Virus record (IMG/VR): IMGVR_UViG_2778261269_000007
Span: 1-8,050 of that record
Strand: one strand, 5' to 3'
Length of the DNA: 8,050 bases
From: a virus
Lineage: Duplodnaviria > Heunggongvirae > Uroviricota > Caudoviricetes
The notes under the pieces are model-generated. The model searched no databases and was not told the DNA's origin. It was given only the letters and a program-made list of their open reading frames with translations. The stretch's first letter is position 1, and each line of letters begins with the position of its first letter. Below, in pieces: positions 1 to 8,050 of this stretch. The translations under genes were made by a program, and so were the position numbers.

Positions 1-201
1 TTACCCATTGGCGCGGCTTAAGAGTTTATTTTTGAACTCACAATGGTCACGATATAACCATCTTGCTCGCCCGTGGATAACTTTGGCTTTAGGCAGGTCT
101 CCGGACTTAATCCGGTCATAGATGAAGGTTTTACCGAAGCCAGTATCGGCCATGATGAATTTCAAATCAACCAGTGAATCAGGTTGTAGTTCGTGTTGCA
201 T
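1..201 (-). CDS. Putative excisionase / AlpA-family DNA-binding protein (66 aa)
   Basis: Complete minus-strand ORF (ATG 199-201, stop TAA 1-3) with GGAGA 8 nt upstream. The motif DTGFGKTFIYDRIKSGDLP...RWLYRDHCEFKNKL fits the AlpA/Xis winged-helix pattern. It sits at the distal end of the leftward early operon, where xis lies in lambdoid phages. It is not lambda Xis by sequence. Confidence 0.6.
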   Translation of the reverse strand: MQHELQPDSLVDLKFIMADTGFGKTFIYDRIKSGDLPKAKVIHGRARWLYRDHCEFKNKLLSRANG

Positions 202-3444: not shown

Positions 3445-4330
3445 TGGCAACCTCCAGTTTAGCTTTGCATTCTGCGTAAATGGCTTGTACGTTCTGCTGC
3501 AATTTCATTCCAGATGTCAGGCGATATGCTTCTGCAAAATATCGCTTCAAATCATCCATGTTTTCTGCCTGAGCCATTTCATCACAAAGAAGTTGTGCTT
3601 TATCCATTATTTCCTTCTGGCGTTTCCGTTCATCTTCGCGTATATCTTCCTCTGATTTGTGCGGCATAACTGGTTCCTGATGCATACCTTCATCCTCGTT
3701 AAGCAGGTGAATGGCATTATCCAGTCGCTGGGCTTTAGGCCAGTATTTGCTGGCGCGTTTAACTATTGTTTTACGCGCCATCTCTTCCCAGAATGTCTTC
3801 CACGGTCCATTCTTTGCCTTGCTCGTTGCTTCCACAGCTTTAATTTCTGCCAGACTCATTTCTTCAGTCAGGTAGTCACCATCTGCTGTTTTAACCGTGC
3901 AATAACCACCAACAATAGAGCCTCGCTCACCAAATGCGTTGTATTTGTGGGTTGGTGCTGAATCAAGGCCGTTTGATTCATAGGTGTCGTTTGAGTACAC
4001 CAGTTTGCATTGCCCCCACTTAATTGAGCCTGTCGATTGCGCAAGATGAAGTAATCCCATATAGCTGATATCAAGGCAAACCATGCCGTCGCGCGGAACC
4101 AGATAAGCCAGTTTGCTGGCCGGGTTTAAGGTGATGCCGATCGCCGCAACATTGATGATGGCGTTCTGTGCGCTGGTTGGATTTGCCAGTGCCGTTTTAG
4201 CAAGGTAATCGTTTTTCTGGAAATACTGAATTGCAAACTGGCTTTCCTTAGCCCATGTAACCGTCTGTTCAGTCAATGCTCCGCAGAATAACTGCTCCTG
4301 CTGTTTAACGAATTCAACGATATTGCTCAT
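3428..4330 (-). CDS. recT: RecT-family single-strand annealing recombinase (300 aa)
   Basis: Minus-strand ORF. The C-terminal region NGPWKTFWEEMARKTIVKRASKYWP parallels the E. coli RecT segment NNGPWVTHWEEMAKKTAIRRLFKYLP, and the overall architecture is RecT/Red-beta like. It occupies the position of bet in the lambda PL operon. Confidence 0.8.
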   Translation of the reverse strand: MSNIVEFVKQQEQLFCGALTEQTVTWAKESQFAIQYFQKNDYLAKTALANPTSAQNAIINVAAIGITLNPASKLAYLVPRDGMVCLDISYMGLLHLAQSTGSIKWGQCKLVYSNDTYESNGLDSAPTHKYNAFGERGSIVGGYCTVKTADGDYLTEEMSLAEIKAVEATSKAKNGPWKTFWEEMARKTIVKRASKYWPKAQRLDNAIHLLNEDEGMHQEPVMPHKSEEDIREDERKRQKEIMDKAQLLCDEMAQAENMDDLKRYFAEAYRLTSGMKLQQNVQAIYAECKAKLEVASEQTV

Positions 4331-4638
4331 GCAGCTTCTCCAAAAATGTGTCTGCGTTTGAATATTGCGAAGGCATATTCAGCCTTAACTCTTTCGGTTA
4401 TTGCATCCCAGAACCATTCAGCGGCTTTTTCCTGATAGTTACAGTCATCATCTTCCAGCCAGTCGATAGCGTCCTTAGTGTGTTCATCTGGTTTATATGA
4501 GCGAAGCATTTCGCTTATTGGGTCGCAACGTTTGCAGAGGCGATCAACTTCACTGTTGATTCGCTCGTAATCTTCATCAGTAAAACTTGCGATTATTTGC
4601 GATATTTCACGCTTATCATTCAGAGTCAGAATCATCAT
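4327..4638 (-). CDS. Hypothetical acidic protein translationally coupled to recT (103 aa); candidate host-nuclease modulator
   Basis: Minus-strand ORF whose stop overlaps the recT ATG (ATGA at 4327-4330). It occupies the gam/abc position immediately upstream of the recombinase. No family recognised from sequence. Confidence 0.55.
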   Translation of the reverse strand: MMILTLNDKREISQIIASFTDEDYERINSEVDRLCKRCDPISEMLRSYKPDEHTKDAIDWLEDDDCNYQEKAAEWFWDAITERVKAEYAFAIFKRRHIFGEAA

Positions 4639-4723
4639 CTTTCTCCTGTTCTTTGTGCTGATTGAGCATTTTGTTCATCTGACGAATGAATTCTTCGTCT
4701 GACCAGTTATCTGTAAAACTCAT
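4616..4723 (-). CDS. Small acidic hypothetical protein (35 aa, MSFTDNWSDEEFIRQMNKMLNQHKEQEKDDDSDSE) in the kil position
   Basis: Hand-translated ORF. ATG 4721-4723 overlaps the stop of the cIII-like gene (ATGA), and the 3' end overlaps the start of the 103-aa gene. Positionally equivalent to lambda kil but with no sequence resemblance that I can confirm. Confidence 0.3.
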   Translation of the reverse strand: MSFTDNWSDEEFIRQMNKMLNQHKEQEKDDDSDSE

Positions 4724-4890
4724 GGGCGGCCTTGTTGTTTCAAAATATCCCAAAGCTTTTCGAGCAAACTTTTCATTCTTGGTTGTTTAAAGTCTGCTCC
4801 GGTTAAAATATTTTTTCGTGAATGCTGTACCGATAAAATCGGGTTGAAAGGGCGAACCGATGCCGCCCCTGCAATAGCGAACTGTTGCAT
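4720..4890 (-). CDS. cIII: cIII-like protein (56 aa from the internal ATG)
   Basis: The track ORF 4720..4995 has an internal ATG at 4888-4890 with AAGGAG 7 nt upstream. From there the product MQQFAIAG...SLLEKLWDILKQQGRP resembles lambda CIII (MQYAIAG...LLERI...LIDILNQPG). The upstream part of the track ORF spans a terminator hairpin and is unlikely to be coding. Confidence 0.45.
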   Translation of the reverse strand: MQQFAIAGAASVRPFNPILSVQHSRKNILTGADFKQPRMKSLLEKLWDILKQQGRP

Positions 4891-4956
4891 AGGATGCTCC
4901 TTCTGTTTGATTGCATAACGAAAACGCCTCGAGTGAAGCGTTATTGGTATGCATAT

Positions 4957-4980
4957 AAAAAGGCCCTCACACTGGAGGGC
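4957..4980 (-). terminator. Rho-independent terminator-like hairpin between ral and the cIII-like gene (tL2-like position)
   Basis: The minus strand reads GCCCTC-CAGTGT-GAGGGC followed by CTTTTT. Arms at 4963-4968 and 4975-4980; the U-tract is encoded by the A-run at 4957-4961. Confidence 0.45.
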
Positions 4981-5116
4981 AAAGAAGATTTCCAATAATC
5001 AGAACAAGTCGGCTCCTGTTTGGTTACGAGCGACATTGCTCCGTGTATTCACTCGTTGGAATGAATACACAGTGCAGTGTTTATTCTGTTGTTTATGCCA
5101 AAAATAAAGGCCACTA

Positions 5117-5317
5117 TCAGGCAGCTTTGTTGTTCTGTTTACCAAGTTCTCTGGCAATCATTGCCGTCGTTCGTATTGCCCATTTATCGACATATTTCCC
5201 ATCTTCCATTACAGGAAACATTTCTTCAGGCTTAACCATGCATTCCGATTGCAGCTTGCATCCATTGCATCGCTTGAATTGTCCACACCATTGATTTTTA
5301 TCAATAGTCGTAGTCAT
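5117..5317 (-). CDS. ral: Ral, restriction alleviation protein (66 aa)
   Basis: The minus-strand ORF MTTTIDKNQWCGQFKRCNGCKLQSECMVKPEE... matches my recollection of lambda Ral in length and sequence, and it lies downstream of N as in lambda. Confidence 0.7.
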   Translation of the reverse strand: MTTTIDKNQWCGQFKRCNGCKLQSECMVKPEEMFPVMEDGKYVDKWAIRTTAMIARELGKQNNKAA

Positions 5318-5387
5318 ACGGATAGTCCTGGTATTGTTCCATCACATCCTGAGGATGCTCTTCGAACTCTTCAAATTCTTCTTCCAT
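5301..5387 (-). CDS. Small acidic ORF (28 aa, MEEEFEEFEEHPQDVMEQYQDYPYDYDY), lambda orf28-like
   Basis: Hand-translated ORF. ATG 5385-5387 is preceded by GAGGTGA; the stop at 5301-5303 overlaps the ral start by 17 nt. Length and position between N and ral match the lambda orf28 annotation as I recall it. Confidence 0.4.
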   Translation of the reverse strand: MEEEFEEFEEHPQDVMEQYQDYPYDYDY

Positions 5388-5395
5388 ATATCACC

Positions 5396-5722
5396 TCAAA
5401 TAAGTGGTTTGCTGCCTAATTTCATTTTCTGGCGACCAACACAAGTCACACCCATTTCACTGCATGGCTTGCTGTACCATGTGCGCTGATTCTTGCGTTC
5501 AATACGTTGCAGGTTGCTTTCAATCTGTTCGTGGTATTCAGCCAGCACCGTAAGGTCTATCGGATTAAGTGCGCTGTCTACTCGTGATTTCGGTTTGCGA
5601 TTCAGCGAGAGAATAGGGCGGTTAACTGGTTTTGCGCTTACCCCAACCAACAGGGGATTTGCTGCTTTCCATTGAGCCTGTTTCTCTGCGCGACGTTCGC
5701 GGCGGCGTGTTTGTGCATCCAT
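5396..5722 (-). CDS. N: Antitermination protein N (108 aa)
   Basis: The minus-strand ORF MDAQTRRRERRAEKQAQWKAANPLLVGVSAKPVNRPILSLNRKPKSR... is near-identical to lambda N as recalled, including the arginine-rich boxB-binding motif at the N-terminus. AGGAG lies upstream of the ATG. Confidence 0.9.
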   Translation of the reverse strand: MDAQTRRRERRAEKQAQWKAANPLLVGVSAKPVNRPILSLNRKPKSRVDSALNPIDLTVLAEYHEQIESNLQRIERKNQRTWYSKPCSEMGVTCVGRQKMKLGSKPLI

Positions 5723-5920
5723 CTGGATTCTCCTGTCAGTTAGCTTTGGTGATTGGATGGCCGGCGCTGAACCCCGGCTTACTGGTTAGAGCGCCCGCAC
5801 TACCAGTGACGCTGTCTTGAGGCGCAGATTGGTTACTGCTTGCCATGAGCGCTGTTTATACATTGGTCGAGCATCAGCCTGCTCATTCATCCAATCCCAA
5901 AGCCTTCTGCTTTGAATGCT

Positions 5921-5951
5921 GCCCTTCTTCAGGGCTTAATTTTTAAGAGCC
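5921..5951 (-). promoter_or_regulatory. nutL site (boxA variant plus boxB hairpin)
   Basis: The minus strand reads GGCTCTTAAAAATTAAGCCCTGAAGAAGGGC. boxB GCCCTGAAGAAGGGC (plus 5921-5935) is identical to lambda nutL boxB. boxA is GGCTCTTA (plus 5944-5951), against CGCTCTTA in lambda. Confidence 0.8.
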
Positions 5952-5983
5952 TCACCTTCATGGTGGTTAGTACGTCCTGCTGA

Positions 5984-6019
5984 TGGCTAAATAGTACGAT
6001 TTGTACTTTATTGAGTCAA
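5984..6019 (-). promoter_or_regulatory. PL early leftward promoter
   Basis: The minus strand reads TTGACT (-35, plus 6014-6019), a 17-nt spacer, TACTAT (-10, plus 5991-5996), then the start at the A of ATCAGCAGGACG (about 5984), which is the lambda PL transcript start sequence. Confidence 0.7.
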
Positions 6020-6032
6020 TACAAAATGTTCT
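5993..6032. promoter_or_regulatory. Putative OL operators (palindromic repressor sites overlapping PL)
   Basis: A perfect palindrome AGTAC-N5-GTACT at 5993-6007 overlaps the -10. A related site AATAC-N5-GTTCT at 6018-6032 overlaps the -35. The pattern differs from lambda OL (TATCACCGC...), consistent with a different immunity. Confidence 0.45.
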
Positions 6033-6083
6033 AAATATAATTAGTTTTTTATAACGCTTTGTATTTAATGGGTTTATATTTTG

Positions 6084-7273: not shown

Positions 7274-7544
7274 CGAGGCTCTACGAATCGAGAGTGCGTT
7301 GCTTAACAAAATCGCAATGCTTGGAACTGAGAAGACAGCGGAAGCTGTGGGCGTTGATAAGTCGCAGATCAGCAGGTGGAAGAGGGACTGGATTCCAAAG
7401 TTCTCAATGCTGCTTGCTGTTCTTGAATGGGGTGTCGTTGACGACGACATGGCTCGATTGGCACGACAAGTTGCTTCGATTCTCACCAATAAAAAACGCC
7501 CGGCGGCAACCGAGCGTTCTGAACAAATCCAGATGGAATTCTGA
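7251..7544 (+). CDS. cII: Transcriptional activator CII (97 aa)
   Basis: From ATG 7251 the product MVRANKRNEALRIESALLNKIAMLGTEKTAEAVGVDKSQISRWKRDW... is essentially identical to lambda CII as recalled. The track ORF 7191..7544 is 5'-extended. Confidence 0.9.
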   Translation: MVRANKRNEALRIESALLNKIAMLGTEKTAEAVGVDKSQISRWKRDWIPKFSMLLAVLEWGVVDDDMARLARQVASILTNKKRPAATERSEQIQMEF

Positions 7545-7576: not shown

Positions 7577-8050
7577 ATGACAAATACAGCAAAAATACTC
7601 AACTTCGGCAGAGGTAACTTTGCCGGACAGGAGCGTAATGTGGCAGATCTCGATGATGGTTACGCCAGACTATCAAATATGCTGCTTGAGGCTTATTCAG
7701 GCGCAGATCTGACCAAGCGACAGTTTAAAGTGCTGCTTGCCATTCTGCGTAAAACCTATGGGTGGAATAAACCAATGGACAGAATCACCGATTCTCAACT
7801 TAGCGAGATTACAAAGTTACCTGTCAAACGGTGCAATGAAGCCAAGTTAGAACTCGTCAGAATGAATATTATCAAGCAGCAAGGCGGCATGTTTGGACCA
7901 AACAAAAACATCTCAGAATGGTGCATCCCTCAAAACGAGGGAAAACCCCCTAAAACGAGGGATAAAACATCCCTCAAATTGGGGGATTGCTATCCCTCAA
8001 AACAGGGTAAGCGTCAACGGAGCACCGTATTGACGCTTATTTATTGGTGA
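7577..8050 (+). CDS. O: Replication initiator O, N-terminal iteron-binding part; frame terminates prematurely at 157 codons
   Basis: The product MTNTAKILNFGRGNFAGQERNVADLDDGYARLSNMLLEAYSGADLTKRQFKVLLAILRKTYGW... matches lambda O through about residue 145, then diverges (lambda ...SKQGDTKDT versus here ...SKQGKRQRSTVLTLIYW stop). Full-length lambda O is about 299 aa. CAGGAG lies upstream of the ATG. Confidence 0.85.
   Translation: MTNTAKILNFGRGNFAGQERNVADLDDGYARLSNMLLEAYSGADLTKRQFKVLLAILRKTYGWNKPMDRITDSQLSEITKLPVKRCNEAKLELVRMNIIKQQGGMFGPNKNISEWCIPQNEGKPPKTRDKTSLKLGDCYPSKQGKRQRSTVLTLIYW
7926..8007 (+). repeat. ori-lambda iterons (four O-binding repeats; the fourth is truncated)
   Basis: Four direct repeats of the TCCCTCAAA(A/T)...GGGA type at about 7926-7942, 7946-7962, 7970-7986 and 7993-8007, inside the O coding sequence as in lambda. 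The right arm of the fourth repeat is replaced by unrelated sequence. Confidence 0.8.

What the first reader, a model, noticed from the sequence alone, without database searches (positions are those of the whole stretch)
7993..8050. O gene and replication origin are broken inside the fourth iteron by a junction with unrelated sequence that carries a terminator-like hairpin
Up to about 8006 the sequence follows lambda O and its ori. At CAGGG|TAAGCG the match ends and the O frame stops 14 codons later. The new sequence has a perfect 10-bp inverted repeat (TAAGCGTCAA at 8008-8017 and TTGACGCTTA at 8030-8039, with a 12-nt loop) followed by TTTATT. The AT-rich half of ori and the P-interacting C-terminal domain of O are therefore absent. 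This could be an insertion, a deletion scar of a defective prophage, or a recombination junction to a different replication module. The final bases GGTGA are too few to call an IS end.
Basis: partly seen in the sequence, partly recalled or inferred. Interest (0 to 1): 0.6.

Follow-up and report, generated by a model that had tools for sequence, protein, structure and literature searches.

The report
IS66-family insertion sequence splits lambda O/ori
The "unrelated sequence with a hairpin" is the first 44 bases of a common E. coli jumping gene (an ISEc23-like IS66-family insertion sequence) that landed inside the fourth origin repeat of a prophage's lambda-type replication gene O; this is an ordinary way for a prophage to be disabled.

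Summary
The window matches lambda O and ori through base 8007, then diverges.

The new sequence can be identified. From G8007 it is the right terminal inverted repeat of an ISEc23/IS682-like IS66-family insertion sequence. Its transposase gene tnpC lies on the minus strand, with its stop codon at 8037-8039. The same 44 bases occur at about 15,000 places in 4,591 of 5,426 complete E. coli genomes. The hairpin belongs to that IS end, and the final GGTGA is IS66 sequence, not an IS1 end.

The window is identical to the end of an E. coli draft contig that breaks 33 bp further into the IS.

I predicted the ORF expected on the far side of a simple insertion with an 8-bp target duplication (AAAACAGG): 11 IS-coded residues followed by O residues 142-299. 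That exact 169-aa protein exists in GenBank. Its accession numbers lie close to those of the truncated O, so it comes from the same assemblies.

This is therefore a simple IS insertion. It is not a deletion scar and not a module junction. It most likely leaves the prophage unable to replicate. The finding is ordinary and of low interest.

The parts
7577..8050 (+). Truncated O::IS fusion ORF of 157 aa: O residues 1-144, then 13 IS-encoded residues, then a TGA stop
   Evidence: Pfam Phage_rep_O matches residues 22-115 (E = 1.6e-36). The exact protein is found on 8 NCBI E. coli contigs.
7925..7942 (+). ori iteron 1 (intact)
   Evidence: Mapped from the lambda annotation 39034-39051 through the alignment offset
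7945..7962 (+). ori iteron 2, with a T-to-C change at 7946 relative to lambda (gives O S123P)
7969..7986 (+). ori iteron 3 (intact)
7992..8009 (+). ori iteron 4, disrupted at its 3' end: 16 of 18 bases still match lambda, and the last two are IS bases
7999..8006 (.). Target sequence AAAACAGG, the left copy of the inferred 8-bp target-site duplication
   Evidence: The reference ISEc23 copy has an 8-bp duplication, ACGTCAGG. The far-side ORF predicted with this duplication exists exactly in GenBank as P0106.
8007..8050 (-). First 44 bp of the right end (IRR side) of an ISEc23/IS682-like IS66-family insertion sequence, with its genes on the minus strand
   Evidence: 100% identical to IS66-family right ends at about 15,000 places in 4,591 of 5,426 complete E. 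coli genomes. The reference copy L002 3504-6035 carries tnpA, tnpB and tnpC. Sister contigs continue 153 bp further into tnpC.
8007..8030 (.). 24-bp terminal inverted repeat (IRR), GTAAGCGTCAACGGAGCACCGTAT
   Evidence: It pairs with IRL of the reference copy at 83% over 24 nt (I1). A GTAAGCGT terminus is also reported for Pseudomonas IS66-family members (PMC12888890).
8008..8039 (.). IS-internal hairpin: arms at 8008-8017 and 8030-8039, with a 12-nt loop that holds a further 4-bp inner stem
   Evidence: (I24)
8037..8050 (-). 3' end of the transposase gene tnpC: stop codon TAA on the complement of 8037-8039, plus the last codons (...T N K)
   Evidence: The transposase CDS of the reference copy ends at L002 3534, which corresponds to window 8037. 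The 54-aa gene fragment in L004 matches PF13817 DDE_Tnp_IS66_C (E = 9e-18).

Best explanation
An ISEc23/IS682-like member of the IS66 family (about 2.5 kb, with tnpA, tnpB and tnpC) transposed into the sequence AAAACAGG inside iteron 4 of a lambda-type ori. That ori lies within gene O of a prophage at the dsdC/argW locus of E. coli. The IS is oriented with its genes opposite to O, so the window ends in the IS right end.

Shown here:
- The identity of the 44 bases and the position of the tnpC stop codon.
- The junction occurs in several independent assemblies.
- O is cut after residue 144 and gains a 13-residue IS-coded tail.
- A protein exists that fuses 11 residues coded by the IS left end to O residues 142-299, exactly as a simple insertion with an 8-bp duplication predicts.

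Inferred:
- The IS is complete.
- Iterons 1-4 are now about 2.5 kb from the AT-rich unwinding region, and the origin-binding and P-binding halves of O are uncoupled. The origin is therefore defective in cis and O is defective in trans.
- The prophage can no longer replicate after induction.

The hairpin is a structural feature of the IS right end. IS bases 2-11 are repeated in inverted orientation at bases 24-33, and the repeat overlaps the tnpC stop codon. Read from outside it is followed by UUUAUU, so it may damp read-in transcription antisense to tnpC. That role is conjecture.
For: - Lambda identity ends at 8007.
- From 8007 on, the 44 bases match IS66-family right ends at 100% in thousands of E. 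coli genomes.
- The annotated reference copy has tnpA, tnpB, tnpC, a 24-bp terminal inverted repeat and the 8-bp duplication ACGTCAGG.
- The window is identical to L003 (NLGD01000035.1), a contig that ends 33 bp after the window. Four sister contigs carry the same junction and run on into a PF13817 IS66 transposase C-terminus.
- The predicted far-side ORF is MATYGGQFTLT + KQG + DTKD...VDL. It is found as an exact 169-aa GenBank protein, P0106: TNP59762.1, TNP87662.1, TNR44596.1, TNS44066.1, on 7 contigs of up to 194,787 bp.
- The truncated O is TNP58003.1, TNP87929.1 and TNR41177.1, in the same accession series as P0106.
- The truncated O keeps the whole Phage_rep_O domain.
Against: - No DNA was obtained for the far junction or for the interior of the IS.
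- Completeness of the IS and the target duplication therefore rest on one exact protein match plus the proximity of accession numbers.
- No complete E. coli genome in the collection carries this junction, so no finished assembly confirms the layout.
- Loss of replication is inferred from knowledge of lambda ori and O, and was not tested.
Confidence: 0.92

Rival explanations
1. IS-associated deletion or rearrangement. An IS66 element abuts iteron 4, but the 3' part of O, the AT-rich region and perhaps P and later genes were lost or moved by a deletion or inversion between IS copies. The prophage would then be a truncated remnant.
For: The source contig ends inside the IS, so nothing downstream is seen directly. 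IS66 copies are numerous in E. coli, with a median of 3 places per genome, which allows recombination between copies.
Against: The exact fusion protein expected from the untouched far junction (IS left end, then the duplicated KQ(G) codons, then O residues 145-299) exists in what appear from accession proximity to be the same assemblies, on contigs of up to 195 kb. A deletion or inversion would destroy that junction.
Confidence: 0.05
2. Recombination junction to a different replication module, or a naturally short O family: the frame continues into a different initiator or ends naturally here.
For: Lambdoid O genes are mosaic around ori. Many O fragments of 141-174 aa share the same protein cluster.
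Against: The sequence after the junction is an IS terminal repeat with a transposase gene on the opposite strand. The other short cluster members are contig-end partials or frameshifts with normal lambda sequence beyond residue 144. Close relatives have full 299-aa O proteins.
Confidence: 0.01
3. Assembly artefact: a chimeric contig end that joins prophage reads to a repeat.
For: The junction lies 77 bp from a contig end, and contigs often break or mis-join at repeats.
Against: The identical junction is present in 8 contigs from several independent assemblies, with different contig ends 33-153 bp past the window. The reciprocal junction is seen at the protein level.
Confidence: 0.02
4. The hairpin is a functional intrinsic terminator that is carried by the IS and stops the pR/O transcript here.
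For: The fold is stable (-19.3 kcal/mol, z = -4.1) and is followed by UUUAUU. The hairpin exists only at the right end, not at the left end.
Against: - The consensus terminator scan does not call it, in either the sister contig or the reference IS.
- The stem is only 40% G+C.
- The predicted fold pairs the first U residues with GGG of the flank, which shortens the free U tract.
- Diverged IS66 right ends show mismatches or wobbles in the stem and no compensatory change.
- From general knowledge of lambda, N-modified polymerase reads through such terminators.
Confidence: 0.2

Closest known systems
ISEc23 / IS682 / ISEc8 group of the IS66 family (names as used in RefSeq annotation)
   Same: The 44 window bases are 100% identical to the right end of annotated ISEc23 copies. 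They share the 24-bp inverted repeat that starts GTAAGCGT, with the tnpC stop 31 bp from the tip. Sister contigs match the tnpC 3' end with 1 mismatch in 153 bp. The IS-coded residues of the far-side protein match the ISEc23 left end exactly.
   Different: Only the tips of the element are seen here. About 200 bp cannot separate ISEc23 from IS682, since each differs from the sister contig at one position. This insertion site, in iteron 4 of ori-lambda, is not present in any of the 5,426 complete E. coli genomes searched.
Bacteriophage lambda O gene with ori-lambda (four iterons followed by an AT-rich region)
   Same: 99.3% DNA identity over O codons 1-144, including all four iterons. The O N-terminal Phage_rep_O domain is intact.
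   Different: There is a T-to-C change in iteron 2 (S123P). Iteron 4 loses its last 2 bp. The AT-rich region and O residues 145-299 are separated from the iterons by the IS. The surrounding prophage is not lambda: it is a mosaic with RecT, Ea22 and TorI at the dsdC/argW locus.
IS-inactivated cryptic lambdoid prophages of E. coli (general phenomenon)
   Same: A transposable element disrupts an essential early gene and leaves a prophage that cannot complete lytic growth.
   Different: Here one insertion hits both the initiator gene and its origin, because ori lies inside O. No phenotype data are available.

Membership tests
IS66 family insertion sequence | Terminal inverted repeats of about 20-30 bp beginning GTAAGCG | tested here: met
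   Window 8007-8030 reads GTAAGCGTCAACGGAGCACCGTAT, which is identical to the IRR of the annotated ISEc23 copy and pairs with its IRL at 83% over 24 nt. The GTAAGCGT start is invariant in 6 diverged right ends. The same terminus is reported for Pseudomonas IS66 members (PMC12888890).
IS66 family insertion sequence | DDE transposase TnpC adjacent to the IRR | tested here: met
   The window holds only the stop codon and the last 3 full codons. Sister contig L004 adds 54 aa that match PF13817 DDE_Tnp_IS66_C (E = 9e-18). The full reference protein matches NF033517 (452 bits).
IS66 family insertion sequence | Accessory genes tnpA and tnpB upstream of tnpC | not testable with these tools
   All contigs that carry the junction end inside tnpC. 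Both genes are present in the reference copy L002.
IS66 family insertion sequence | 8-bp target-site duplication flanking a complete element | tested here: met
   Indirect, at the protein level. The ORF predicted from the IS left end + AAAACAGG + lambda exists exactly as the GenBank protein P0106, in the same accession series as the truncated O. The reference copy has the 8-bp duplication ACGTCAGG. The far junction was not seen as DNA.
Lambda-type O initiator with ori | N-terminal origin-binding domain (Pfam Phage_rep_O) | tested here: met
   PF04492 matches residues 22-115, 125 bits
Lambda-type O initiator with ori | Four 18-bp iterons directly followed by the AT-rich region, inside one continuous O reading frame that has the P-binding C-terminal domain | tested here: not met
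   The iterons are present, but the frame and ori are interrupted at 8007. The C-terminal part is coded elsewhere in the genome.
Rho-independent (intrinsic) terminator | G+C-rich stem, a short loop of 3-8 nt, and a U tract immediately 3' of the stem | tested here: not met
   The consensus scan does not report it on either strand. The stem is 40% G+C with a 12-nt loop, or a bulged inner stem. The fold itself is stable.
   Sister contigs and ISEc23 continue GGTGAGTACTACGTTCC..., inside tnpC. The IS1 terminus GGTGATGCTGCC is recalled from memory and was not checked here.

The most novel reading that the evidence does not exclude
Iteron 4 of lambda-type origins may be a recurrent target for insertion sequences, with such hits retained because they yield replication-dead, domesticated prophages. 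The same protein cluster holds other O forms that break at or next to iteron 4: P0003 ends ...YPSN and is found on 62 contigs, and P0113 carries foreign N-terminal residues joined at YPSKQG. A further possibility is that the IS-supplied ATG allows expression of a free O C-terminal (P-binding) fragment that interferes with superinfecting lambdoid phages.
Probability: 0.07. Interest if true: 0.35.

Novelty: already known. Interest (0 to 1): 0.1.

Why it matters
The finding matters mainly for annotation. The 157-aa and 169-aa proteins deposited as 'replication protein' and 'replication protein O' are the two halves of one IS-disrupted gene. The prophage should be flagged as probably unable to replicate.

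It also shows why draft contigs end here: the assembly breaks on a multi-copy IS. No new biology is implied. IS insertions into prophage genes are common, and both the IS and the target are well-known elements.

Tried and rejected
- Junction scans of viral contigs and metagenome contigs: no matches.
- Complete E. coli genomes: none carries the junction, and none carries a closely matching whole prophage; the best hit covers 67% of the window.
- Search for the far side through O C-terminal homologues:
  - P0034 proved to be a frameshifted O in another prophage.
  - P0019 proved to be a contig-end partial.
  - The far side was then found by exact look-up of predicted fusion sequences: 1 of 10 guessed variants hit.
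- PDB sequence search with the truncated O: no hits.
- Outward promoter at the IS left end that could drive the far-side ORF: none found by consensus scan.
- Han et al. 2001 (IS679/IS66): could not be retrieved.
- IS1-end reading of GGTGA: rejected.
- Covariation support for the hairpin: sought in 6 diverged right ends and not found.

Full report
**Observation**

The last 474 bases of the window (7577-8050) form an ORF of 157 codons. Bases 7578-8007 align to lambda 38687-39116 at 99.3% identity, and at up to 99.8% to other lambda-like phages. A three-way alignment shows the match to lambda ending after CAGGG, at 8007.

Lambda's annotated iterons map to window 7925-7942, 7945-7962, 7969-7986 and 7992-8009. 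The break therefore removes only the last two bases of iteron 4.

Translation gives O residues 1-144, with one substitution (S123P). These are followed by KRQRSTVLTLIYW and a TGA stop at 8048-8050.

As RNA it folds at -19.3 kcal/mol on the + strand (z = -4.1) and -17.0 kcal/mol on the - strand (z = -4.6).

**What the foreign sequence is**

A search with window 8004-8050 against 5,426 complete E. coli genomes found 15,232 places in 4,591 genomes. Most are 100% identical from base 8007 onward, and they lie under features annotated as IS66-family (ISEc23, IS682) transposases.

In one annotated copy (E. coli AR_0086, locus L002) the element spans 3504-6035, or 2,532 bp. It starts GTAAGCGTCAACGG... 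and ends ...TTTACGCTTAC. It is flanked by an 8-bp direct repeat, ACGTCAGG, and carries tnpA, tnpB and tnpC. These genes match the NCBIfam IS66 models: IS66_TnpB and the IS66 transposase model clear their curated cut-offs, and TnpA clears the cut-off of the ISRel24-type TnpA model. Its ends form a 24-bp imperfect inverted repeat (I1).

The window matches the tnpC-proximal (right) end. The transposase CDS on the opposite strand ends at the position that corresponds to window 8037. The complement of 8037-8039 is therefore the tnpC stop codon, and 8040-8050 is the complement of its last codons.

A GTAAGCGT terminus and the three-gene layout are also described for classic IS66-family members in PMC12888890.

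The 10-bp hairpin is part of the IS: bases 2-11 of the element are repeated in inverted orientation at bases 24-33 (I24). The left end has no counterpart.

**Where the window comes from**

An exact-protein look-up of the 157-aa ORF found it on 8 contigs of NCBI E. coli draft assemblies. The window is identical, with 0 mismatches, to L003 2425-10474 (NLGD01000035.1, GCA_002225685.1), and that contig stops 33 bp after the window ends.

Four other contigs carry the same junction and extend up to 153 bp further. That extra sequence matches the 3' end of tnpC with one mismatch to ISEc23. The 54-aa fragment it encodes matches Pfam DDE_Tnp_IS66_C (E = 9e-18).

The junction is therefore real. The contigs end there because the assemblies break on a multi-copy IS. 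No complete E. coli genome in the collection has this junction, and scans of viral and metagenome contigs found none.

**Insertion or deletion?**

I built the sequence expected on the far side of a simple insertion: the ISEc23 left end, then the duplicated AAAACAGG, then lambda. In the O frame it gives an ORF that starts at an ATG inside the IS: MATYGGQFTLT, then K142-Q143-G144, then the rest of O.

I joined that prefix to ten natural O C-terminal variants collected, and looked them up as exact sequences. One of them is in the collection. It is P0106, 169 aa, annotated 'replication protein O [Escherichia coli]', with accessions TNP59762.1, TNP87662.1, TNR44596.1 and TNS44066.1. It occurs on 7 contigs, the longest of 194,787 bp.

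The truncated O of the window is TNP58003.1, TNP87929.1 and TNR41177.1, on 8 contigs. Accessions in the same series, as little as 267 apart, indicate the same genome submissions.

An exact 169-residue match, including 11 residues that only the IS left end in this frame and register can encode, is strong evidence on three points:
- both IS ends are present;
- the 8-bp duplication is AAAACAGG;
- the 3' part of O follows directly.

The DNA itself could not be fetched. The interior of the IS and the physical linkage of the two junctions therefore remain inferred.

**Consequences (inferred)**

The truncated protein keeps the whole Phage_rep_O domain (residues 22-115) but lacks the C-terminal half. 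From established knowledge of lambda, that half contacts P.

The iterons are separated by about 2.5 kb from the AT-rich region where unwinding starts. The origin should therefore be defective in cis and O defective in trans. The prophage should fail to replicate after induction.

**The hairpin as a terminator**

The evidence is weak:
- The consensus scan does not report it in the sister contig or in the reference IS.
- The stem is only 40% G+C.
- The best fold uses the first U residues to pair with GGG of the flank.
- Three diverged IS66 right ends (EcPF40, JNE120393, ISKox1) show a wobble or mismatches in the stem, with no compensatory change.

It may still reduce read-in transcription antisense to tnpC. 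That remains conjecture.

**Context**

The source contig has dsdX and dsdC immediately to the left of the window. Window 1-201 (- strand) is torI. The prophage therefore sits at the dsdC/argW locus.

Its early region (Ea22, RecT, gp157, Ral, N, cI, cro, cII) is a mosaic. It most resembles P22/HK620-like E. coli podophages and other prophages, with at most 67% of the window covered by any one genome.

**Comparison and verdict**

This is a known IS (ISEc23/IS682 group, IS66 family) inserted into a known gene and origin (lambda-type O and ori).

The event is an ordinary prophage-disabling IS insertion seen in one E. coli lineage. Its value is for annotation, and interest is low.

The only reading with some novelty is that iteron 4 is hit recurrently. 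It is hinted at by other broken O forms in the same protein cluster and was not tested.

Noticed in passing
window 1-201 (- strand); L003 1-2425: The first gene of the window is torI (a KplE1-type excisionase), and the source contig has dsdC and dsdX directly to its left. The prophage therefore sits at the argW/dsdC locus with its recombination module split between the two ends. It combines a P22/HK620-like early region with a lambda-type O/ori.
   Followed up: partly
window 7493-7520 (- strand): A strong terminator-like hairpin (12 pairs, 6 of them G-C, followed by a T run) lies antisense at the 3' end of cII. From memory, this is the position of lambda's oop RNA terminator. The scan found it in sister contig L004 at 4195-4168.
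   Followed up: no
window 7946: There is a T-to-C change relative to lambda in the second base of iteron 2 (ATCCCC to ACCCCC). It also changes O residue 123 from Ser to Pro. All close relatives that were examined have Ser.
   Followed up: no
protein cluster of the truncated O (P0003, P0004, P0113): Other E. coli assemblies carry different O lesions around iteron 4. P0003 (142 aa, ending ...YPSN) is on 62 contigs. P0113 has foreign residues MSGTCSHLP joined at YPSKQG, which looks like the far side of another insertion. P0004 is a frameshift in the A-run after the iterons and is on 39 contigs. This could point to recurrent disruption of this spot.
   Followed up: no
far side of the IS (not in the window); P0106: The IS left end supplies an in-frame ATG. 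As a result the orphan O C-terminal half is deposited in GenBank as a complete 169-aa 'replication protein O'. No promoter-like site facing outward was found near that IS end.
   Followed up: partly
L002 3496-3503 and window 7999-8006: The two insertion targets seen here, ACGTCAGG and AAAACAGG, both end in CAGG. Five other IS66 right-end flanks do not, so this is probably coincidence.
   Followed up: partly
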